From: Escherichia coli 042
Lineage (GTDB): Bacteria; Pseudomonadota; Gammaproteobacteria; Enterobacterales; Enterobacteriaceae
DNA length: 64,000 nt
Reading direction: 5' to 3' (one strand)
Assembly (NCBI RefSeq): GCF_000027125.1
Contig: NC_017626.1
Both the position numbers and the translations under genes were made by a program. This document shows positions 2,650 through 50,498 of this stretch, piece by piece. The notes below the pieces were generated by a model. That model worked only from the letters and a program-made list of their open reading frames with translations, did not search any database and had not been told where the DNA came from. Position 1 is the stretch's first letter. Each line of letters begins with the position of its first letter.

Positions 2650-3859
<1,210 letters not shown>

Positions 3860-3863
<4 letters not shown>

Positions 3864-4510
3864 GCCTCTGCTCCGGGTTTGATCAGCATCAGACCACAGC
3901 CGAACGCGCGGCTTTTGCCATACCCCTGGCTCAGACGTTGCAGAAATAACCCAGGATCGGTGACCGTAAGCATCCCCGTATAATCCACGCTACAGAACTG
4001 GATCAGTTGCCGGGAGTTTTCCCGCCGCAGTTGCTGTTGTCGGTAGGCATCGACCGAGGTATCCAGTAGTGTAAAACCGCTTCTTTCCCCCTGCGCTGCC
4101 AGCCAGTCCAGCGCCGCCTGTTGTTGATGCAACCAGACATCACGCCCTTCCGCCTGCCCCCTCACCTGCCGTTTCGCCTCTATCAGCAGATCGTGGCGCT
4201 TACCCGCTTTACAGACTGTTGGATTCGCCCGCAGGTTGAAACAAAGGGATTGTCCGGTACGCAGCTCCGGCGCAAATGACCGGCATTCGATGGTGAACGT
4301 ATCACTTTCCGCCGGGCGTTCCTGCGACAGGACAAAAAAGCGAAACGCGCCCTGGAGTTCTTCCCGACGATAAAGAAATTGCCTTTCTTTGCCACCCGGG
4401 AAAAGATCCCACAGCCACTGATGCATCACATATTCACCGCGATCCACCAGATGCAGCAACTGCGCAGGCGAAAGCTGGCCGGTATGTAAGGTTATTCTTG
4501 AGAGGTACAT
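3860..4510 (-). CDS. casE: Cas6e / CasE (Cse3) crRNA endoribonuclease
   Basis: Track ORF 3860..4648; I place the start at the internal Met (MYLSRITLH..., about 4510), which is preceded by AGGAGG. C-terminal glycine-rich segment GCGLMLIK typical of Cas6e. Confidence 0.85.
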
Positions 4511-5238
4511 GGTTCCTCCTTGCTGAGCCACGGCCCCTGATTGACGGTGCGTTCCCCAAACAGCCACTGCTGGCGATTTAAAGGAACATCCCGGCGGCGC
4601 AATATTTTGCTCGCGACCAGGCCGTCGTGCTCCCCTTCCCACCAGCATTCATCCTGAAGTTTCGGGAGTGAGACTTTCAGTTCGTGGAAACGATCCTGAT
4701 ACTGTTGGTATGCGTTACGTAAGACATCAGACGCGTTGCCTTCGAGCAGTAACGGCGCAAGTGGTAACGCCAGCGGATGACTTTTTCGCCCCAGATAAAG
4801 CGGAAAAACCGGATGACGTAAATCTTCCTGCAACTGTTCGAGGCTGTAAGGCGCATCGGGGGTTGTTGCCACCGCCACCATCCACCAGGCGTCGGTGTAA
4901 TAGTCGCGCCGGGAGATAATCGCGCTTAGCAGTTCAAGATTACTCAACTCTTCGCGACGGCTGAAATAACGCGCTTTACGCACCTCTTTTGGCATCTGGA
5001 CCGTGTGATAATCCCGTGCCCAGCGCGGGTTACGGCTGGCGCAAACCACCAGTGAATAGTGGCGATTAAACGCGTTTAAGCGTTCGGTATCATCACGCCG
5101 AATCCCTACCCCGGCAGCCAGCAGCCCCAGCAATGCTGAGCGCGAAGGCAGTTCATGGGTATGACGCACTTCACCGGGGGCATCGACGCCCCAGGATGCC
5201 ATCGGCCCATGAAGCTGAAAAATTAGATATTGGCTCAT
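4492..5238 (-). CDS. casD: Cas5e / CasD
   Basis: 248 aa, MSQYLIFQLHGPMASWGVD...RSALLGLLAAGVGIRRDD matches the Cas5e N-terminal motif; operon position. Confidence 0.9.
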   Translation of the reverse strand: MSQYLIFQLHGPMASWGVDAPGEVRHTHELPSRSALLGLLAAGVGIRRDDTERLNAFNRHYSLVVCASRNPRWARDYHTVQMPKEVRKARYFSRREELSNLELLSAIISRRDYYTDAWWMVAVATTPDAPYSLEQLQEDLRHPVFPLYLGRKSHPLALPLAPLLLEGNASDVLRNAYQQYQDRFHELKVSLPKLQDECWWEGEHDGLVASKILRRRDVPLNRQQWLFGERTVNQGPWLSKEEPCTSQE

Positions 5239-5248
5239 AAGCCGCCCC

Positions 5249-6304
5249 TTACGCGCAGATAAAGTCCAGCACGTCCTTCATGCTTCCCTGTTTGTTCATC
5301 ACGTCAAAACTTGTGTAATCGGTCTTCTGTTCGTAAACCTTATTCATGTTTTCGCGAAGCGTCGTAATACGCTGCACCGCTTCATCTAACTGCCCGGTGC
5401 CGTTAATGGGTTCATAAAAAGCCGCCGCCAGAGAGCGCGGTTGTTCGATACCTTTTTCTGCCATCGCCCAGGAGGCGTAGGCACGACTGGCAAAGCTGTT
5501 TTGTTTACCGGTTGGGGAAACTTTAAACGCGGCTTCCGTAAAGGCGCGCAGGGTCTGATTAGCCAACGCTTCGTCTCCGCCGAGGTTTTCTACCAACAGA
5601 TCTTTATCAATGCAGATATAGGTGTAGAAAAGTGCTGAACCGAATCCGGTTTCACCAAGATGCCCGGCACCGGCATCTTCAGAAGCCTGGCGCAAATCAT
5701 CAACGGCGGTGAAAAAATCATCTTCGACAATCGTTTCACTGACACCAAACGCATGCGCAACCTGGCAGGCGGCTTCAACATTAAACTCGGGTTTATTCGC
5801 CAGCATACGACCAAACATAGCGATATCTACCGCCATGCGATCTTTACGTAACAAAGCGAGATCTTCCTCTTTTGGCGCGCGCTTTTCTTCGGCCAGTTGA
5901 TGGGCCAGCGCTTTTACGGCGTCAAATTCTGCCGGGCTGATATGGACTAGCTGTTCAGTTTCGGCGTTAGTGAGCGGATCTTTTGGTTTTTTGTCGTTTT
6001 TAGCTTTCCCAAGATAATCCGCAATTTTTGCCGCCCATTCGATGGCTTTTTTCTCTTCGATGCCTTTCTCAATCAGGATAGTTGCCGCCTCACGCGCAAT
6101 ACGCCCACTGCGAATACCAATATGGCCCGCCAGTGCCTGTTCAAAATGTGCAGAAGTGCGCCACGCACGTTTCAGACTTTGTGAGGAAACGCGCAGACGC
6201 GTTGCTCCACCCAGTACCACAGTTTTTGGCGCACCGGTGTCATCACGGTTAAGGTTGGCAGCAGGGTAAGCGGTTAACAAATGAAGCTGAATAAATGTCG
6301 TCAT
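5249..6304 (-). CDS. casC: Cas7e / CasC (Cascade backbone)
   Basis: 351 aa, MTTFIQLHLLTAYPAANLNRDDTG...SSQSLKRAWR is the Cas7e signature; operon position. Confidence 0.92.
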   Translation of the reverse strand: MTTFIQLHLLTAYPAANLNRDDTGAPKTVVLGGATRLRVSSQSLKRAWRTSAHFEQALAGHIGIRSGRIAREAATILIEKGIEEKKAIEWAAKIADYLGKAKNDKKPKDPLTNAETEQLVHISPAEFDAVKALAHQLAEEKRAPKEEDLALLRKDRMAVDIAMFGRMLANKPEFNVEAACQVAHAFGVSETIVEDDFFTAVDDLRQASEDAGAGHLGETGFGSALFYTYICIDKDLLVENLGGDEALANQTLRAFTEAAFKVSPTGKQNSFASRAYASWAMAEKGIEQPRSLAAAFYEPINGTGQLDEAVQRITTLRENMNKVYEQKTDYTSFDVMNKQGSMKDVLDFICA

Positions 6305-6318
6305 GAGATAGTCCTTTA

Positions 6319-6855
6319 TTAATTTTGTTCGTTATCGGCGTCGCCAGCCTGGTAATATTCCAGCGCCCAGCGGATACGGATAAATTCTGTTGGCCGCTGC
6401 TGGCGGCGGTGATGATTGAGCAGATCGTCGCTCTCCTGGCACCAGCGGAAAATATCGTCTGCCAAAGAGATAAGATTGACGGAACCATTTAATAATTTGA
6501 CCGCGCGACGTAACTGGCGCAGTAATTCATCCGGCGTTTTGACTGCCGACAGGCGAGTAAAACGCCCCTCAGACATTACCGCCGCCAACTGCGCGGCAAA
6601 AAGCTGCCGTTCATCAATGGCTTTTACATTGGCGGCAACGGCGGCAACCAGCGCCAGTGCGGTAAAACGCCACTCCTGTGATTCAATTTTCCACAACGTG
6701 TGGGTCTGCATCAGCAGAGAACGAAACCCTTCTGACAGACAAACATCATTAACCGTTGTGCTACGCCGCAGACTGGCACGATTGCCTCGTTTTTCCTGCA
6801 ACTCTTCGTGCCATTTACGCAGCGTGGCTTTGTGCTCCTCTTTTACAATACTCAT
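6319..6855 (-). CDS. casB: Cse2 / CasB (Cascade small subunit)
   Basis: 178-aa ORF between casA and casC with ATGA-type overlap to casA; assignment mainly by operon position and size, sequence divergent from my memory of K-12 CasB. Confidence 0.75.
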   Translation of the reverse strand: MSIVKEEHKATLRKWHEELQEKRGNRASLRRSTTVNDVCLSEGFRSLLMQTHTLWKIESQEWRFTALALVAAVAANVKAIDERQLFAAQLAAVMSEGRFTRLSAVKTPDELLRQLRRAVKLLNGSVNLISLADDIFRWCQESDDLLNHHRRQQRPTEFIRIRWALEYYQAGDADNEQN

Positions 6856-40999: not shown

Positions 41000-43756
41000 A
41001 TGACCAACTACAGCCTGCGCGCACGCATGATGATTCTGATCCTGGCACCGACCGTCCTTATTGGTTTATTGCTGAGTATCTTTTTCGTTGTGCATCGCTA
41101 TAACGACTTGCAGCGTCAACTGGAAGATGCCGGAGCCAGCATTATTGAGCCGCTTGCAGTTTCTACTGAATATGGCATGAGCCTGCAAAATCGCGAATCT
41201 ATCGGTCAGTTAATAAGCGTACTGCATCGTCGCCATTCCGATATTGTTCGCGCGATTTCGGTTTATGATGAAAATAACCGACTCTTTGTCACCTCCAATT
41301 TTCATCTTGATCCCTCATCAATGCAGCTCGGCAGCAACGTGCCGTTTCCTCGCCAGCTCACTGTCACTCGTGACGGCGATATTATGATCCTCCGCACGCC
41401 GATTATTTCTGAGAGTTACTCCCCCGACGAATCGCCCAGTAGCGATGCCAAAAATAGTCAAAATATGTTGGGATATATTGCGCTTGAGCTGGATCTTAAA
41501 TCGGTTCGCTTGCAGCAATATAAAGAGATCTTTATTTCCAGCGTGATGATGCTGTTTTGTATCGGTATTGCGCTTATTTTTGGCTGGCGCTTAATGCGCG
41601 ATGTAACCGGTCCGATTCGCAATATGGTGAATACCGTCGACCGCATCCGTCGCGGGCAACTCGACAGCCGTGTGGAAGGATTTATGCTCGGCGAGCTGGA
41701 TATGCTGAAAAACGGTATCAACTCGATGGCAATGTCGCTGGCTGCTTATCACGAAGAGATGCAGCACAATATCGATCAGGCGACGTCCGATCTGCGTGAA
41801 ACGCTGGAGCAGATGGAAATTCAGAACGTTGAGTTGGATCTGGCGAAAAAGCGTGCCCAGGAAGCGGCGCGTATTAAATCCGAGTTTCTGGCAAATATGT
41901 CACACGAGCTGCGTACACCACTGAATGGTGTTATTGGCTTTACCCGCCTGACGCTGAAAACAGAATTAACACCAACGCAGCGCGATCACCTGAATACGAT
42001 TGAACGTTCGGCAAATAATTTGCTGGCAATTATTAATGATGTTCTCGACTTCTCGAAACTGGAAGCAGGTAAGCTGATTCTGGAAAGTATTCCATTCCCA
42101 CTACGCAGCACGCTGGATGAAGTCGTTACCCTGCTGGCACATTCTTCTCACGATAAAGGGCTGGAACTGACGCTCAATATTAAAAGCGACGTGCCCGATA
42201 ACGTAATTGGCGACCCACTACGATTACAGCAAATCATCACTAACCTGGTGGGGAATGCAATTAAATTCACCGAGAATGGCAACATTGATATTCTGGTAGA
42301 AAAACGTGCGCTGAGTAATACCAAAGTTCAGATTGAAGTGCAGATTCGGGATACCGGCATTGGTATTCCTGAACGCGATCAATCGCGCTTATTCCAGGCC
42401 TTCCGACAGGCTGATGCCAGTATTTCCCGCCGTCATGGTGGCACCGGGCTGGGGCTGGTGATTACACAAAAACTGGTTAATGAAATGGGCGGCGATATTT
42501 CGTTCCATAGCCAGCCGAATCGCGGTTCAACTTTCTGGTTCCACATTAATCTCGATCTGAATCCGAACATTATTATCGAAGGGCCATCCACCCAATGCCT
42601 CGCCGGCAAGCGCCTGGCCTATGTCGAACCAAACTCCGCAGCAGCGCAATGTACGCTGGATATTTTAAGTGAAACGCCGCTGGAAGTGGTTTATAGCCCA
42701 ACGTTCTCCGCGCTGCCTCCCGCGCATTACGACATGATGTTATTAGGCATTGCGGTGACCTTCCGCGAGCCGCTAACAATGCAACATGAGCGATTAGCGA
42801 AAGCGGTATCGATGACCGATTTTCTGATGCTGGCACTTCCTTGCCATGCACAAGTCAATGCTGAAAAACTTAAGCAAGATGGTATCGGCGCGTGTCTGCT
42901 GAAACCATTAACACCTACGCGCCTGTTACCTGCCCTGACGGAATTTTGTCATCACAAACAAAACACGCTTTTGCCTGTAACCGATGAAAGTAAGCTGGCA
43001 ATGACAGTCATGGCGGTTGATGACAACCCCGCTAACCTGAAACTTATCGGCGCATTGCTGGAAGATATGGTGCAACATGTGGAACTTTGCGATAGCGGGC
43101 ATCAGGCGGTTGAACGGGCGAAACAGATGCCGTTCGATTTGATCTTAATGGATATTCAAATGCCGGACATGGACGGCATTCGGGCCTGCGAACTCATCCA
43201 CCAGCTCCCCCATCAGCAACAAACGCCAGTTATCGCGGTAACGGCGCATGCAATGGCCGGGCAAAAAGAGAAGCTGCTTGGCGCAGGGATGAGCGATTAT
43301 CTGGCGAAACCGATTGAAGAAGAGCGATTGCATAATTTGCTGTTGCGCTACAAGCCTGGCAGCGGCATTTCCTCTCGCGTCGTGACGCCTGAAGTCAACG
43401 AAATTGTGGCGAACCCGAATGCAACCCTCGACTGGCAACTGGCACTACGCCAGGCAGCAGGAAAAACCGATTTAGCGCGCGATATGCTGCAAATGTTACT
43501 CGATTTCCTGCCTGAAGTTCGCAACAAAGTTGAGGAACAGCTGGTTGGAGAAAACCCGGAAGGCCTGGTTGATTTGATTCATAAACTGCATGGCAGTTGC
43601 GGCTATAGCGGTGTGCCGCGTATGAAGAATCTCTGCCAACTGATCGAACAACAGCTACGTAGCGGTACTAAAGAAGAAGATTTGGAGCCGGAGCTGCTGG
43701 AACTGTTAGACGAGATGGATAATGTAGCGCGCGAAGCCAGCAAAATTCTAGGGTAA
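41000..43756 (+). CDS. barA: hybrid sensor histidine kinase BarA (HisKA-HATPase-REC-HPt)
   Basis: 918 aa; H-box SHELRTPLN, receiver [12 protein letters not shown]...[15 protein letters not shown]-terminal HPt domain. Confidence 0.95.
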
Positions 43757-43831
43757 TGGACCGTCTTGCCGAGTAGCAATCGGCTTTTTATGAAGCTGGT
43801 TTCAGACTGGTGACAAAGTGCCTGTGTTTAT

Positions 43832-43865
43832 GCCGGATGCGGCGATAACGCCTTATCCGGCCTAC
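43832..43865. repeat. REP element downstream of barA
   Basis: GCCGGATGCGGCGATAACGCCTTATCCGGCCTAC. Confidence 0.75.
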
Positions 43866-43952
43866 AAAACCAATTAAATTCAATGAATTAAAAAGTATGT
43901 TGGCCTGATACGTAGCGCAACAGGCAATTTTGCGTTTGGCATCAGACTCAAC

Positions 43953-43985
43953 CCGGCTCCTGACAGAGCCGGTTTTGGTTTTCTG
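43953..43985 (+). terminator. rho-independent terminator shared by barA and the convergent gudD
   Basis: CCGGCTC-CTGACA-GAGCCGG followed by TTTTGGTTTTCTG. Confidence 0.7.
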
Positions 43986-43987
43986 TC

Positions 43988-45328
43988 TTAACGTACCATG
44001 CACGGACGCTTGTTATCGAACGTCCAGCCAGGAATCAGATACTGCATTCCCATTGCATCGTCACGCGCGCCAAGCCCGTGCTTCTGATACAGCTCGTGGG
44101 CTTTCATCACCTGATCCATATCGATTTCTACGCCCAATCCTGGTTTTTGCGGCACCTGTACCAGCCCGCCTTTGATCTCAAACGGTTCTTTGGTCAGACG
44201 CTGATTGCCTTCCTGCCAGATCCAGTGTGTATCAATCGCGGTGATTTTACCCGGTGCAGCAGCGGCTACATGGGTAAACATCGCCAGGGAGATATCGAAA
44301 TGATTGTTAGAGTGTGAACCCCAGGTCAGGCCAAATTCATGGCACATTTGCGCCACACGTACCGAACCTTGCATCGTCCAGAAATGCGGATCCGCCAGCG
44401 GGATATCAACGGATTGTAACGAGAGCGTATGGCCCATCTGCCGCCAGTCGGTGGCGATCATATTGGTTGCGGTTGGCAGGCCAGTCGCGCGACGGAACTC
44501 TGCCATCACTTCACGCCCGGAGAAACCTTGCTCCGCACCACACGGATCTTCTGCATAAGCCAGCGAACCTTTCAGGTATTTACCGATTTTAATCGCTTCG
44601 TTCAGCGACCAGGCACCGTTAGGATCGAGGGTAATACGCGCCTGTGGGAAGCGTTGCGCCAGTGCCACAATAGATTCGGCTTCTTCTTCCCCGGCCAGTA
44701 CACCGCCCTTCAGTTTGAAATCGTTGAAGCCATATTTTTCATATGCCGCTTCCGCCAGGCGCACCACCGCATCCGGCGTCATCGCTTCTTCGTGACGCAG
44801 GCGATACCAGTCACATTTATCATCCGGCTGGCTTTGATACGGCAGCGGTGTGGCTTTGCGATTACCGACGAAGAACAGATAACCGAGCATTTCGACTTCG
44901 CTACGCTGTTGACCATCGCCCAGCAGCGATGCCACGTTAACCCCCAGATGCTGCCCCAGCAGATCCAGCATTGCCGCTTCTATACCGGTAACCACATGAA
45001 TAGTGGTCCGCAAATCAAATGTCTGCAAACCGCGCCCGCCGGCATCACGATCGGCAAATGTATTACGCACCAGCGTCAGAACGTTTTTGTATTCACCCAG
45101 CGTTTTACCCACCACTAGCGGAATCGCATCTTCCAGCGTTTTACGGATTTTCTCGCCGCCGGGAATTTCCCCTACGCCGGTGTGACCAGAATTATCTTTG
45201 ATAATCACAATATTACGCGTGAAGAACGGTGCGTGTGCACCACTCAGATTCATCAGCATACTGTCATGGCCCGCCACCGGGATGACCTGCATTTCAGTAA
45301 CAACAGGCGTCGTAAATTGAGAACTCAT
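43988..45328 (-). CDS. gudD: glucarate dehydratase
   Basis: Track ORF 43988..45352; start placed at [25 protein letters not shown] (about 45328), 446 aa; enolase-superfamily fold. Confidence 0.9.
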
Positions 45329-45348
45329 ATTTATGTCCTTTTTCAAAA

Positions 45349-46689
45349 TCAATGACGGCCGAAAACGGGACGTTTACGGTCAAAGGTCCAGCCGGGGATC
45401 AGGTACTGCATCGGGCCCGCGTCGTTACGCGCACCGCCAGGCAGACGTTTATAGGCCTCATGCGCCTTTTGTACCTGCTCCCAGTCCAGTTCCACGCCCA
45501 GACCGGGCGCATCAGGAACGGCAATTTTTCCGTTTTTAATCTCCAGCGGATTTTTGGTCAGGCAACAATCTCCCTCCTGCCAAATCCAGTGGGTATCGAT
45601 AGCAGTAGGATTACCCGGTGCCGCCGCGCCCACATGGGTAAACATCGCCAGAGAGATATCAAAGTGGTTATTGGAATGGCAGCCCCAGGTCAGCCCCCAG
45701 TCGTCGCAAAGTTGCGCCACGCGGACTGCACCGGAAAGCGTCCAGAAGTGCGGATCGGCAAGTGGAATATCTACCGCATTGAGCATCACCGCATGGCCCA
45801 TTTCGCGCCAGTTGGTGGCGATCATGTTAGTCGCGACGGGCAAGCCGGTCGCCCGCCGAAACTCCGCCATCACTTCACGTCCGGAGAAACCCTGTTCTGC
45901 GCCACATGGATCTTCGGCATAGGTGAGAACATCATTCAGCCCTTTGCACAGAGAAATGGCTTCATCAAGCAGCCATGCACCGTTGGGATCAACGGTAATT
46001 CGCGCATCCGGGAAGCGTTTCTTCAATGCACGAACAGTGTCGATTTCTTGCTCGCCAGGTAACACTCCGCCCTTAAGTTTGAAATCTTTAAAGCCATAGC
46101 GATCCTGTGAAGCTTCCGCCAGACGCACAACGGCTTCGCTGTTCATCGCTTTCTGATGCCGCAATTGATACCACTCATGGTTGCCCGGCGTATTTTCCAG
46201 ATAAGGAAGATCGGTTTTGGTCCGATCACCGATATAAAACAGATAACCGAGGACGGTAATAGCATCGCGTTGCTTGCCTGGCCCTAACAGTTCGCAGACC
46301 GGAACATTCAGCGCCTTACCTAGCAGGTCAAGCAAGGCGGCTTCCAGCGCCGCCACGGCATTAACGCGCAATTCAAAAGTCCAGGCACCTTTGCCGAAGG
46401 TATCAAAATCGGCTGCCTGATTACCTTTATGCACCTGCTGAACCACTTTATTCAGGCGCGCAACTTCCTGGCCCAGCACCATCGGAATAGCATCGACCAG
46501 TGTCTGATAAATCACCTCTCCGCCCGGCGCTTCACCAATACCGGTATGCCCGGCGTTATCGGTGAGTACCACAATATTGCGGGTGAAATATGCGTTATGT
46601 GCACCACCAATATTAAGCAACATGCTGTCATGCCCGGCCACCGGAATGACTTTCATATCAGTAATAACAGGACTGGATTGTGTCGTCAT
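45349..46689 (-). CDS. gudX: glucarate dehydratase-related protein (paralog of GudD)
   Basis: 446 aa, [31 protein letters not shown]...; strongly paralogous to the adjacent gudD. Confidence 0.9.
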
Positions 46690-46690
46690 C

Positions 46691-48043
46691 TTATTGCCCC
46701 GCGACAGGTTTCAGCTCGATACGCTTGATATCGCCCACCAGCACCAGGTAGCTCAGCACCGCGATTAAGGCATGAACACCAACATAAATCAGCGCCCCAT
46801 TAAACGAGCCAGTCGTGCCAACGATATAACCAATTGCGATTGGCGTGACGATGCCAGAAATGTTACCGAACATGTTGAACAGGCCACCGGAAAGACCGCT
46901 GATCTCTTTTGGCGCGGTATCTGCCATTACTGCCCAACCCAGCGCCCCGATGCCCTTACCGAAGAAGGCCAGCGCCATAAAACCGATGATCATCCACTCA
47001 ACGTTGACGTAGTTGCAGAACACCATCACCATCGACAGCAACATGCCCATTACGATCGGTGTTTTACGCGCAATGTTCAGCGATCCCGTGCGGCGCATCA
47101 GCCAGTCGGAAATAATCCCACCCAGCACACCGCCGATAAAACCGCAAACCGCCGGAACGGAAGCCACAAAGCCCGCTTTCAGAATCGACATCCCACGCGC
47201 CTGCACCAGATAAACCGGAAACCAGGTAATGAAAAAGTAAGTCAGGGCGTTGATACAGTACTGACCGATATAAACGCCGATCATCATCCGTGACCCGAGC
47301 AGCTGTTTGATCTGCCCCCACTTCACGCTGAACGGCACTTTAACTTTGGTATTTTGCTGATCCATATTGATCAGCGCGCCACCCGCGGCGATGTACTCCA
47401 GCTCTTTCTGATTTACACCCGGATGTTGATTTGGCTCGTGGATGACTTTCAACCAGATAAAGCTGATGACAATGCCCAGACCGCCCATAAAGAAGAAGAC
47501 GTGTGACCAGCCCACTTCATGCGTCAGCCAGCCCATAATCGGCGCGAAGATCACCGTTGCGAAGTATTGAGCGGAGTTAAAAATCGACACCGCCGTTCCC
47601 CTTTCCTGCGCCGGAAACCAAGCCGCAACAATGCGACTGTTGCCGGGGAAAGATGGCGCTTCAGCAAGCCCGACCAGGAAGCGCAGCGTAAACAGGGCAA
47701 CGATAATGCCGAATCCACTAAAGATATCGACGAAGCCTTGCAGCAAGGTAAACATCGACCAGATAAAGATCGACCAGAAGTAGACGCGTTTTGAACCAAA
47801 ACGATCCAGCAACCAACCACCAGGGATCTGCCCGATAACATAAGCCCATGAGAAGGCAGAGAACACATAGCCCATTCCCACGGGATCAAGGCCGATATCT
47901 TTGGCCATTTCCGAACCGGCAATAGAAAGCGTAGCGCGGTCGCCGTAGTTGAAGGATGTGACGATAAACAACATCACCACTATCCAGTAACGAGCATTCG
48001 TGCGTTTTTCCACACTGCTCGCAGCCTGACTTAAAGAACTCAT
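46691..48043 (-). CDS. gudP: glucarate/galactarate MFS transporter
   Basis: 450 aa polytopic MFS protein, first gene of gudPXD. Confidence 0.9.
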
Positions 48044-48370
48044 TGTTGCACTCCTGAAAATTCGCGTTAGCCACGCTCACTCTGGACTGCGACATCGCCA
48101 GGAAATCAGAGGTGACGTAGGGTGTTTTTTGCCGTTTTTATAGGTCGTTCGCCGAATACGGCGCGTGTTTATATCTGGCAATAGCAGTATAAAAAGCGCG
48201 CCATAGCGGCTCACCGTGCAACAACACAACATTAATGCGTTCAATGAGGCCCAATTTTGGCATTAGCCCTGGACGGTGGAATCCACTTCACGGAAATGAA
48301 AACAAGAACAAGAAAGGAAGGGTTAAAACGAAGAAATAAAGAAGAGTATGAAATGGATCGCTTGACTCCA

Positions 48371-48421
48371 GGCAAACGCCAGTAAAAATCCGCGCTATGA
48401 AGCAGTTTTTACTGGCATTTG
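48371..48421. repeat. 17-bp-arm inverted repeat in the yqcA-gudP intergenic region
   Basis: GCAAACGCCAGTAAAAA ...17 bp... TTTTTACTGGCATTTGC (one mismatch). Confidence 0.7.
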
Positions 48422-48442
48422 CCTGAAAAGATTCGATTCAGC

Positions 48443-48502
48443 ACCGCTAAAACGGCATTTACACCGCTAAAACGGCATTTACACCGCTAAAACGGCATTT
48501 AC
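48443..48502. repeat. perfect tandem repeat, 3 x 20 bp, plus partial fourth copy
   Basis: ACCGCTAAAACGGCATTTAC repeated three times head-to-tail, followed by CCGCT. Confidence 0.9.
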
Positions 48503-48517
48503 CGCTCGCTGAACGTA

Positions 48518-50096: not shown

Positions 50097-50141
50097 AAAG
50101 CAACCTCAATAAGAAAAACTGCCGCGAAGGATAGCAGGAAT

Positions 50142-50498
50142 AAAAAAAGGGAGCACTGTATTCACAGTGCTCCCGGTTCGTTTCGCAGCATTCCAGCTAC
50201 TTTTGTTGCTCCCTGCTCATCCTTGACAACTTTTCCTCTGGCCTTGCGGCCAATCGTTCATCCTGAACTATTGCTTCCTGCTCACACCACCCCGATGTGA
50301 TACTTCATCCTGAAGTGTCCCTGGCCTTCCTGGCCCACCGAATCATCCTGACCGGTTCTCATTCTCCATCCTGGAGGTGTCCTTTAACGCGTCCTGCGTC
50401 ATCCTCTTCGCTTCATCCAGAAGCCTTTCCCTGAAACACCATCCTGGTGTGTCCTTCAGAAGTGTCATCATCCTGATGTTCACTTCGTTGTCTGACTC
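50142..50498 (-). ncRNA. csrB: CsrB regulatory sRNA (CsrA-sequestering)
   Basis: About 357 nt with many CAGGATG / AGGA motifs (seen as CATCCTG on the + strand); 5' end GAGTCAGACAACGAAGTGAACATCAGGATG; 3' terminator GGGAGCACTG...CAGTGCTCCC plus U-tract. Track ORFs 50085..50300 and 50377..50565 lie inside it and are not coding. Confidence 0.95.

What the first reader, a model, noticed from the sequence alone, without database searches (positions are those of the whole stretch)
43988..46689. Tandem paralogs gudD and gudX
The two adjacent ORFs share extensive identity (for example [11 protein letters not shown], GDRxx[19 protein letters not shown], the [27 protein letters not shown] block and the C-terminal IPGWTFD.KRP). 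This is a known duplication in which one copy has unclear function; both copies are full-length here.
Basis: partly seen in the sequence, partly recalled or inferred. Interest (0 to 1): 0.15.

Follow-up and report, generated by a model that had tools for sequence, protein, structure and literature searches.

The report
Known gudX–gudD tandem paralogs
These are the well-known neighbouring E. coli genes gudX and gudD, an ancient duplicated pair in the glucarate-utilisation operon; both copies are intact and keep every catalytic residue, so the finding is correct but ordinary.

Summary
Window 43988-45328 (-) is gudD (D-glucarate dehydratase, 446 aa). Window 45349-46689 (-) is gudX (glucarate dehydratase-related protein, 446 aa). 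Both sit in the gudP-gudX-gudD operon of Escherichia coli.

The two proteins are 63% identical. Their DNA is 65% identical and the longest exact run is 20 nt, so this is an old duplication, not a recent one and not homogenised by gene conversion.

All 19 active-site positions checked are present in both copies. They are essentially invariant in about 109 orthologues of each type and in 77 species pairs.

gudX is under purifying selection as strong as gudD: dN/dS is 0.015-0.06 for gudX against 0-0.047 for gudD. In 77 of 77 informative species loci, gudX lies directly upstream of a gudD-type gene. It forms a separate clade with derived substitutions next to active-site residues (W103, C337). One PDB entry, 4GYP, holds both proteins.

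I infer that GudX is a catalytically competent partner of GudD in the same pathway. Its substrate remains unknown, which is a long-standing gap.

Verdict: already known, low interest.

The parts
43988..45328 (-). gudD, D-glucarate dehydratase (446 aa). The start is the ATG at 45328.
   Evidence: 444/446 residues identical to PDB 1ec7, differing at S171K and E394Q. Scores 899.3 bits on NCBIfam TIGR03247, above the 828.7 cut-off. RefSeq annotates it as gudD. The exact protein occurs on at least 1000 E. coli contigs.
45329..45348 (-). 20-nt gudX-gudD spacer carrying the gudD ribosome-binding site (AAGGA at 45336-45340).
   Evidence: Read directly from the sequence. Identical in E. coli 7/2. The X-to-D spacing is 15-94 nt in 77 species.
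45349..46689 (-). gudX, glucarate dehydratase-related protein (446 aa).
   Evidence: 440/446 residues identical to PDB 4il0 and 4gyp_C. Scores 747.9 bits on TIGR03247, below the 828.7 cut-off. Matches Pfam PF13378 and PF02746. The exact protein is E. coli CBG35814.1, found on 97 contigs.
46691..48043 (-). gudP, MFS glucarate/galactarate transporter, first gene of the operon. Its stop codon is 1 nt from the gudX start.
   Evidence: Scores 538.6 bits on NCBIfam TIGR00893. RefSeq annotates it as gudP. A gudP-type gene lies directly upstream of gudX in 68 of 80 species loci.
48044..48517 (-). yqcA-gudP intergenic region. It is presumed to hold the gudP promoter and regulatory sites, but this was not shown here.
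   Evidence: It is the only sizeable non-coding stretch upstream of the three tightly packed genes. The consensus scan found no convincing minus-strand sigma-70 site. It contains a 20-bp x3 tandem repeat and a 35-nt inverted repeat.
43757..43987 (.). Convergent gudD/barA intergenic region with two terminator-like hairpins (43768-43784 and 43953-43972, both scored for the + strand) and a REP-like palindrome (43832-43861).
   Evidence: No canonical minus-strand intrinsic terminator for gudD was detected.

Best explanation
This is the gudX-gudD pair of the E. coli gudP-gudX-gudD operon for D-glucarate uptake and catabolism.

gudD encodes D-glucarate dehydratase, an enolase-superfamily enzyme. From established knowledge of the family, a Mg2+ ion is held by Asp235, Glu260 and Asn289. 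Lys207, or the His339-Asp313 dyad, abstracts the C5 proton of D-glucarate or L-idarate. The 4-OH group is then eliminated to give 5-keto-4-deoxy-D-glucarate.

gudX is an ancient paralog, older than the diversification of Enterobacterales. It has kept the whole catalytic apparatus. It carries lineage-specific changes in the substrate-capping loops and in residues next to catalytic ones.

Shown here: both genes are intact and tightly packed, both are under equally strong purifying selection, and they are never separated.

Inferred, at about 45% probability: GudX is a catalytically competent subunit that is made together with GudD and co-assembles with it into a hetero-oligomer acting on glucarate-pathway substrates. 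It would not be a free-standing enzyme of an unrelated pathway, and it would not be a dead copy.
For: Identity of the genes.

Age and absence of gene conversion:
- DNA identity is 65%, and the longest exact run is 20 nt.
- Even the 27-residue identical protein block shares only about half of its codons.
- The X clade, which includes PDB 3n6h, and the D clade each have 100% bootstrap support.
- P. putida GlucD groups with the D clade.

Catalytic residues:
- N27, H32, T103, Y150, F152, K205, K207, D235, N237, E260, E266, N289, D313, H339, S340, N341, D366, H368 and R422 are present in both window proteins.
- They are invariant in 109 D-type sequences, and in 109 X-type sequences apart from one N289T sequence.
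- They are invariant in all full-length members of 77 species pairs.

Selection:
- dN/dS is 0.015-0.06 for gudX and 0-0.047 for gudD.
- X evolves at 1.14 times the rate of D.

Linkage:
- 77 of 77 informative loci from 80 species have a D-type gene 15-94 nt downstream of gudX.
- Annotated loci in Erwinia, Dickeya, Enterobacter and Leminorella show the same order.

Physical association: PDB entry 4gyp holds both the GlucD sequence and the GlucDRP sequence.

Derived state of X:
- There are 45 fixed X/D differences, clustered at residues 28-34, 101-116 and 301-322, plus S338C.
- At these positions P. putida GlucD has the D state at 28 and the X state at 8.
Against: - Enzymatic activity and oligomeric state were not tested here.
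- A co-crystal entry does not prove that the complex forms in the cell.
- GudD works without GudX. Pragia fontium has gudP-gudD with no gudX. A Salmonella lineage carries a single X/D hybrid gene. From memory, recombinant GlucD alone is active and was crystallised as a homo-oligomer.
- GudX falls below the curated glucarate dehydratase equivalog cut-off.
- From memory of Hubbard et al. 1998, which is not held in the library, purified GudX has much lower GlucD activity than GudD.
- The Dickeya Tn-seq phenotype for gudX (PMC10202176) could be a polar effect on gudD and the gar genes downstream.
Confidence: 0.85

Rival explanations
1. GudX is an independent enzyme with its own, still unidentified, acid-sugar substrate. 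That substrate would be imported by GudP or derived from glucarate or galactarate. Co-location with gudD would then reflect shared regulation rather than physical association.
For: - The full catalytic set is invariant across all orthologues examined.
- Fixed differences concentrate in the capping-domain loops at residues 28-34 and 101-116, which in this superfamily shape substrate specificity (the specificity role is family knowledge).
- GudX falls below the GlucD equivalog cut-off.
- X is a distinct, old clade.
Against: - gudX was never found away from gudD in 77 of 77 informative loci, which is unusual for an enzyme with an independent role.
- All 19 active-site positions checked, which include the substrate-contacting ones as I recall them from the GlucD structure papers, are identical to those of GudD.
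- PDB entry 4gyp holds both chains.
- From memory, the GudX-type protein 3pfr was crystallised with D-glucarate bound.
Confidence: 0.3
2. GudX is a non-catalytic pseudoenzyme that acts as a regulatory or scaffolding subunit of GudD.
For: - Strict adjacency to gudD.
- A PDB entry holding both chains.
- Reported low activity of GudX (from memory of Hubbard et al. 1998).
Against: Pseudoenzymes normally lose catalytic residues. Here the general bases K206 and H338, the D312 dyad partner and the metal ligands D234, E259 and N288 are invariant apart from a single N288T sequence. This holds over a divergence older than Enterobacterales. dN/dS is as low as for gudD.
Confidence: 0.1
3. GudX is a redundant, decaying duplicate of gudD, or a recent duplicate kept similar by gene conversion.
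For: - GudX is dispensable in some lineages. Pragia has no gudX and a Salmonella lineage has a single hybrid gene.
- Occasional truncated copies occur, for example in Pantoea septica L076 and in a Dickeya oryzae assembly.
Against: - dN/dS is 0.015-0.06.
- The gene is intact in about 76 of 77 species.
- Orthologues stay 81-100% identical across Enterobacterales, while X and D stay about 64% identical.
- DNA identity is 65% with no exact run longer than 20 nt, so there is no conversion tract.
Confidence: 0.03

Closest known systems
E. coli K-12 GudD / GlucD (D-glucarate dehydratase, EC 4.2.1.40; PDB 1ec7, 1ec8, 1ec9, 1ecq)
   Same: 444/446 residues are identical, every active-site residue is present, and the position is the same: last gene of gudPXD, convergent with barA.
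   Different: Two substitutions, S171K and E394Q. Both belong to a common E. coli allele and are identical in strain 7/2.
E. coli K-12 GudX / GlucDRP (glucarate dehydratase-related protein; PDB 4il0, and 4gyp together with GlucD)
   Same: 440/446 residues are identical, the length is the same, and the position between gudP and gudD is the same.
   Different: Six substitutions relative to K-12: A2T, D58E, E142D, V164L, R376C and Q379K. R376C lies at a position that is Arg in 97 of 109 X-type and 106 of 109 D-type sequences, so it is a rare lineage allele giving a Cys375-Cys376 pair.
GudX-type protein in PDB 3n6h/3n6j/3pfr and GudD-type protein in 4g8t (from memory, both from Actinobacillus succinogenes)
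   Same: 3n6h groups with the GudX clade at 100% bootstrap. It shares 28 of the 45 X-specific residues, including W103 and C337. 4g8t groups with GudD and shares 42 of 45 D states.
   Different: 3n6h is about 74% identical to the window GudX. It changes part of the otherwise identical block, reading AEDPCIGENGYSGRE.
Pseudomonas putida GlucD (PDB 1bqg)
   Same: Same family and the same catalytic residues. It groups with the GudD clade at 78% bootstrap.
   Different: The distance to GudD is about 0.34 and to GudX about 0.45. It has the D state at 28 and the X state at 8 of the 45 diagnostic positions.

Membership tests
Enolase superfamily (MR/MLE-type) | An N-terminal capping domain plus a C-terminal barrel domain, detectable by the family profiles. 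| tested here: met
   PF13378 matches with E = 6.6e-48 for GudD and 2e-50 for GudX. PF02746 matches with E = 9.7e-09 for GudX. It was not reported for GudD at E <= 0.001, but GudD is 99.6% identical to the solved structure 1ec7.
Enolase superfamily (MR/MLE-type) | Three carboxylate or amide ligands for the essential Mg2+, at the ends of barrel strands 3, 4 and 5. | tested here: met
   D235, E260 and N289 in GudD correspond to D234, E259 and N288 in GudX. All are present in both window proteins. They are invariant in orthologues apart from one N288T sequence. The assignment of these residues as ligands is from memory of the GlucD structure papers.
D-glucarate dehydratase (GlucD, NCBIfam TIGR03247 equivalog) | A whole-protein score at or above the curated equivalog cut-off of 828.7 bits. 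| tested here: met
   GudD scores 899.3 bits.
D-glucarate dehydratase (GlucD, NCBIfam TIGR03247 equivalog) | The same cut-off applied to GudX. | tested here: not met
   GudX scores 747.9 bits, below 828.7. RefSeq accordingly names it only 'enolase C-terminal domain-like protein'. GudX is therefore filed as a GlucD-subgroup paralog, not as a glucarate dehydratase.
D-glucarate dehydratase subgroup | The general bases: the KxK motif (K205/K207) and the His339-Asp313 dyad. Also the substrate-contact residues N27, H32, T103, Y150, F152, N237, S340, N341, D366, H368 and R422. | tested here: met
   All are present in both window proteins and invariant in 109 + 109 homologues and in 77 species pairs. 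The list of residues is from memory of Gulick et al. 2000/2001. The PDB mutant entry 1jdf (N341D in the alignment) supports the importance of N341.
D-glucarate dehydratase subgroup | Catalysis of D-glucarate or L-idarate dehydration. | not testable with these tools
   Needs enzyme assays. For GudD, activity is inferred from 99.6% identity to the characterised enzyme. For GudX it remains open.
GudX / GlucDRP orthologous group | Membership of the X clade and possession of X-specific residues such as W103, C337, and the YGFKDFK and NMIATNW motifs. | tested here: met
   The X clade has 100% bootstrap support. All 45 fixed X states are present in the window protein. The X-specific patterns retrieved 80 species loci.
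GudX / GlucDRP orthologous group | Position immediately upstream of a gudD-type gene and downstream of a gudP-type transporter gene. | tested here: met
   In the window, gudP is 1 nt from gudX and gudX is 20 nt from gudD. The X-D order holds in 77 of 77 informative loci. gudP lies directly upstream in 68 of 80 loci.
GudX / GlucDRP orthologous group | Hetero-oligomer formation with GudD. | not testable with these tools
   The only evidence is that PDB entry 4gyp contains both sequences. No paper describing it was found. The AF2 single-chain model was poor (pLDDT 43) and no multimer prediction is available.

The most novel reading that the evidence does not exclude
GudX is neither a spare nor a separate enzyme. 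It is an obligate hetero-oligomeric partner of GudD, and its own active sites are intact but retuned: W103 lies next to T104, C337 lies next to H338, and the 20s and 100s loops are altered. This would give the complex a property that GudD homo-oligomers lack, such as a different balance of D-glucarate and L-idarate dehydration against epimerisation, or activity on a further diacid. That would explain three results found here. The pair has stayed fused in gene order in 77 of 77 informative species loci. gudX is as constrained as gudD. gudX is never found alone.
Probability: 0.3. Interest if true: 0.35.

Novelty: already known. Interest (0 to 1): 0.08.

Why it matters
The locus itself adds nothing new. 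gudP-gudX-gudD is annotated in essentially every E. coli genome, and both proteins have solved structures.

The residual interest is that GudX still has no assigned function, even though it is a conserved protein of a model organism. The comparative results here narrow the options. GudX is not decaying, not a pseudoenzyme by sequence, and not a recent copy. It is always tied to gudD. This points to simple experiments on a GudX-GudD complex.

Tried and rejected
1. **Gene conversion or recent duplication.** The + strand ORFs opposite the two genes end in nearly identical peptides, which suggested long identical DNA. Codon-level alignment shows only 65% nucleotide identity and no exact run above 20 nt. 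The antisense similarity arises because, in that frame, the wobble positions of the two strands coincide. Rejected.

2. **Antisense ORFs as genes.** The + strand ORFs at 44429-45118 and 45352-46062 are mechanical by-products of the paralogous coding sequences. They were not pursued.

3. **Primary literature.** The papers on GlucD and GlucDRP (Hubbard 1998; Gulick 2000) are not held. Searches for GlucDRP, 4GYP and 4IL0 found nothing relevant. Most hits for 'gudX' were noise. Statements about kinetics and residue roles are therefore from memory and are marked as such.

4. **Representative-library search.** At 50% clustering it returned mostly fragments and chimeras. It was useful only for the full-length outgroups P0266, P0267, P0270 and P0282.

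5. **AlphaFold2 model of GudX.** Built from the 8-sequence alignment A1, it was poor (mean pLDDT 43). The planned fold search was dropped, because solved structures at 99% identity already exist.

6. **Promoter and terminator scan.** It gave no more hits than shuffled sequence and found no clear minus-strand promoter or terminator for the operon.

7. **Rfam.** No RNA family was found within the locus.

Full report
**What is there**

Listing ORFs around the reported interval shows three tightly packed minus-strand genes. These are a 450-aa MFS transporter (46691-48043), a 446-aa protein (45349-46689) and a second protein (43988-45352 as a mechanical ORF). They are followed by the convergent barA gene (41000-43756, + strand).

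A megablast of window 43700-48100 against 5,426 complete E. coli genomes finds the locus in 5,425 of them. The best identity is 98.5%. RefSeq annotates the genes as gudP, gudX, gudD and barA. The exact GudX protein is E. coli CBG35814.1, found on 97 contigs. The exact GudD protein is found on at least 1000 E. coli contigs.

The true gudD start is the ATG at 45328 (MSSQFTT...), preceded by AAGGA at 45336-45340. It matches the annotated and the crystallised protein. The TTG at 45352 given by the mechanical ORF overlaps the gudX stop codon. gudP stops 1 nt before the gudX start, and gudX stops 20 nt before the gudD start.

**Checking the observation**

- BLASTP of the two 446-aa products gives 283/448 identities (63%), 78% positives, 5 gap positions and E = 0.
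Two of them are exact in only one copy.
- The similarity is far beyond chance. It is also picked up at the DNA level as a 300-nt direct repeat at 74% identity.

**Old or recent duplication?**

A codon alignment gives 65% nucleotide identity, and the longest exact run is 20 nt. Within the 27-residue block that is identical at the protein level, only about half of the codons are identical. There is no gene-conversion tract.

I built a neighbour-joining tree from these sequences:
- paired X and D proteins from Escherichia, Enterobacter, Erwinia and Dickeya;
- three PDB sequences;
- three distant outgroups.

The tree gives these results:
- The X clade, which includes PDB 3n6h, has 100% bootstrap support.
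- The D clade, which includes PDB 4g8t, has 100% bootstrap support.
- P. putida GlucD (1bqg) joins the D clade in 78% of replicates.
- P. putida GlucD falls outside an X+D group in 0% of replicates.

The split therefore predates Enterobacterales. GudX also lies further from the outgroups than GudD does, at 0.94-1.02 against 0.77-0.80 to P0270. This indicates an early acceleration on the X branch.

I used the active-site residues of E. coli GlucD as I remember them from the structure papers. That literature is not held in the library. The residues are:
- the bases K205/K207 and H339 with D313;
- the metal ligands D235, E260 and N289;
- the substrate contacts N27, H32, T103, Y150, F152, N237, E266, S340, N341, D366, H368 and R422.

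All 19 positions are present in both window proteins. They are invariant in 109 D-type sequences. They are also invariant in 109 X-type sequences, apart from one N289T sequence. They are invariant in every full-length member of 77 species pairs. The condition that would have changed the interpretation, loss of catalytic residues in one copy, is not met.

**How the two copies differ**

GudD passes the curated NCBIfam equivalog cut-off for glucarate dehydratase (899.3 against 828.7 bits). GudX does not (747.9 bits).

Forty-five alignment columns are fixed, at 95% or more, to different residues in the two groups. They cluster at residues 28-34, 101-116 and 301-322. They include Q102W and D105E on either side of T103, and S338C next to H339.

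At these columns P. putida GlucD has the D state at 28 and the X state at 8. The distant outgroup P0270 has the D state at 17 and the X state at 4. PDB 3n6h shares 28 X states. GudX is therefore the derived copy. Its changes lie in capping loops and the second shell, not in the catalytic set.

**Is gudX functional?**

Synonymous and non-synonymous differences:

| Comparison with the window | gudX | gudD |
|---|---|---|
| E. coli 7/2 | 20 synonymous, 4 non-synonymous | 24 synonymous, 0 non-synonymous |
| Five comparisons from E. coli to Klebsiella and Enterobacter (dN/dS) | 0.015-0.06 | 0-0.047 |

Across 77 species, X proteins diverge 1.14 times as fast as D proteins.

A scan of one genome per species used the X-specific peptides YGFKDFK and NMIATNW. 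It returned 80 loci from Enterobacteriaceae, Erwiniaceae, Pectobacteriaceae and Yersiniaceae.
- In 77 loci a D-type gene follows 15-94 nt downstream.
- The other 3 loci end just after gudX, so they are uninformative.
- In 68 loci a gudP-type gene lies directly upstream.

Annotated loci from Erwinia, Dickeya, Enterobacter and Leminorella agree. The reverse does not hold. Pragia fontium has gudP-gudD without gudX. A Salmonella lineage has a single X(1-270)/D(271-445) hybrid gene.

**Physical association and phenotype**

The PDB sequence search shows that entry 4gyp contains both the E. coli GlucD sequence and the GlucDRP sequence. GlucDRP was also solved alone as 4il0. No paper describing these entries was found.

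A Dickeya solani Tn-seq study lists gudP, gudD, gudX and garL as fitness genes on galactarate (PMC10202176). Polarity on downstream genes is a caveat, because in Dickeya the gar genes follow gudD in the same orientation.

**Interpretation**

Shown here:
- These are the known gudX and gudD genes.
- Both are intact and both keep the catalytic apparatus.
- The duplication is ancient and has not been homogenised.
- gudX is as constrained as gudD and is never separated from it.

Inferred, at about 45%: GudX is a catalytically competent subunit produced together with GudD and co-assembling with it in glucarate catabolism.

The rivals are:
- an independent enzyme with an unknown substrate, at about 30%;
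- a non-catalytic regulatory subunit, at about 10%, disfavoured by the invariant catalytic residues;
- a decaying or recently converted duplicate, at about 3%, effectively refuted.

**Verdict**

Interest is low. The only open point is the unassigned function of GudX, which is an old gap.

Noticed in passing
window 48442-48502: A perfect 3-copy tandem repeat of a 20-bp unit (CACCGCTAAAACGGCATTTA) lies in the yqcA-gudP intergenic region, next to a 35-nt inverted repeat at 48354-48440. E. coli 7/2 (L001) and Escherichia sp. E1V33 (L006) carry a single copy, so this is a strain-variable VNTR upstream of the gud operon.
   Followed up: partly
L005 1751-3088 (Salmonella enterica, Logan ERR4338418); protein P0055: A single hybrid gene, GudX-type for residues 1-270 and GudD-type for residues 271-445, sits between the transporter gene and a glycerate kinase gene. 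The breakpoint lies in the 27-residue block shared by both paralogs. This fits a deletion by recombination between the tandem copies. It occurs on 9 contigs and in 54 member sequences. Reciprocal D/X chimeras (P0128, P0154) also exist. Collapse during short-read assembly is not excluded.
   Followed up: partly
proteins P0001-P0005, P0009, P0011, P0013, P0121, P0122: Public databases hold 460-690-aa 'glucarate dehydratase' proteins that are GudX-GudD read-throughs or contain repeated or shuffled segments of the two paralogs. One is a GudP-GudD fusion. Most look like assembly or frameshift artefacts caused by the similarity of the paralogs.
   Followed up: no
protein clusters (representative P0007): The 90%-identity cluster that contains E. 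coli GudD is represented by P0007, which is a GudX-type sequence: 98.9% identical to GudX and 63.9% to GudD. This is probably chaining through chimeric sequences. It explains why E. coli GudD itself was missing from the hit list.
   Followed up: partly
window 45562-45564 (GudX codon 376, TGC): GudX carries Cys376 where 97 of 109 X-type and 106 of 109 D-type sequences have Arg. This creates a Cys375-Cys376 pair. It is a lineage allele, because the same protein occurs on 97 E. coli contigs, including CBG35814.1.
   Followed up: partly
L086 (Pragia fontium LR134531.1) 3546-6338: The glucarate/galactarate cluster here has gudP followed directly by gudD, with no gudX. The related Leminorella grimontii (L087) has both. 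A reverse-transcriptase gene (PF00078) lies next to garD in the Pragia locus.
   Followed up: no
L067, L073, L080-L083 (Pectobacteriaceae and relatives): A gap of 500-770 bp separates the gudP-type gene from gudX, instead of the overlap or few-nt spacing seen in Enterobacteriaceae. In Pectobacterium versatile, gudX is listed among the PhoP-regulated genes with a predicted operator, in a table that gives the first gene for operons (PMC7843439).
   Followed up: no
window 50139-50498 (-): The CsrB small RNA (Rfam RF00018, 383.9 bits) lies just upstream of yqcC, as expected for E. coli.
   Followed up: no
window 43757-43987: The convergent barA/gudD intergenic region holds a REP-like palindrome (43832-43861) and two hairpins with T-runs on the + strand (43768-43784, 43953-43972). 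No canonical minus-strand terminator for gudD was found.
   Followed up: no
window 43700-48100: The best DNA identity to any of 5,426 complete E. coli genomes is only 98.5%, although the encoded proteins are exact matches to known E. coli proteins. The window's strain or a close relative seems to be absent from that collection.
   Followed up: no
L076 (Pantoea septica) and L057 (Candidatus Pantoea haifensis): The gudX reading frame in L076 stops after 213 aa, and the gudD frame in L057 stops after 182 aa. These may be pseudogenes or sequencing errors. The gudX of the Dickeya oryzae assembly L003 has a frameshift near its C-terminus.
   Followed up: no
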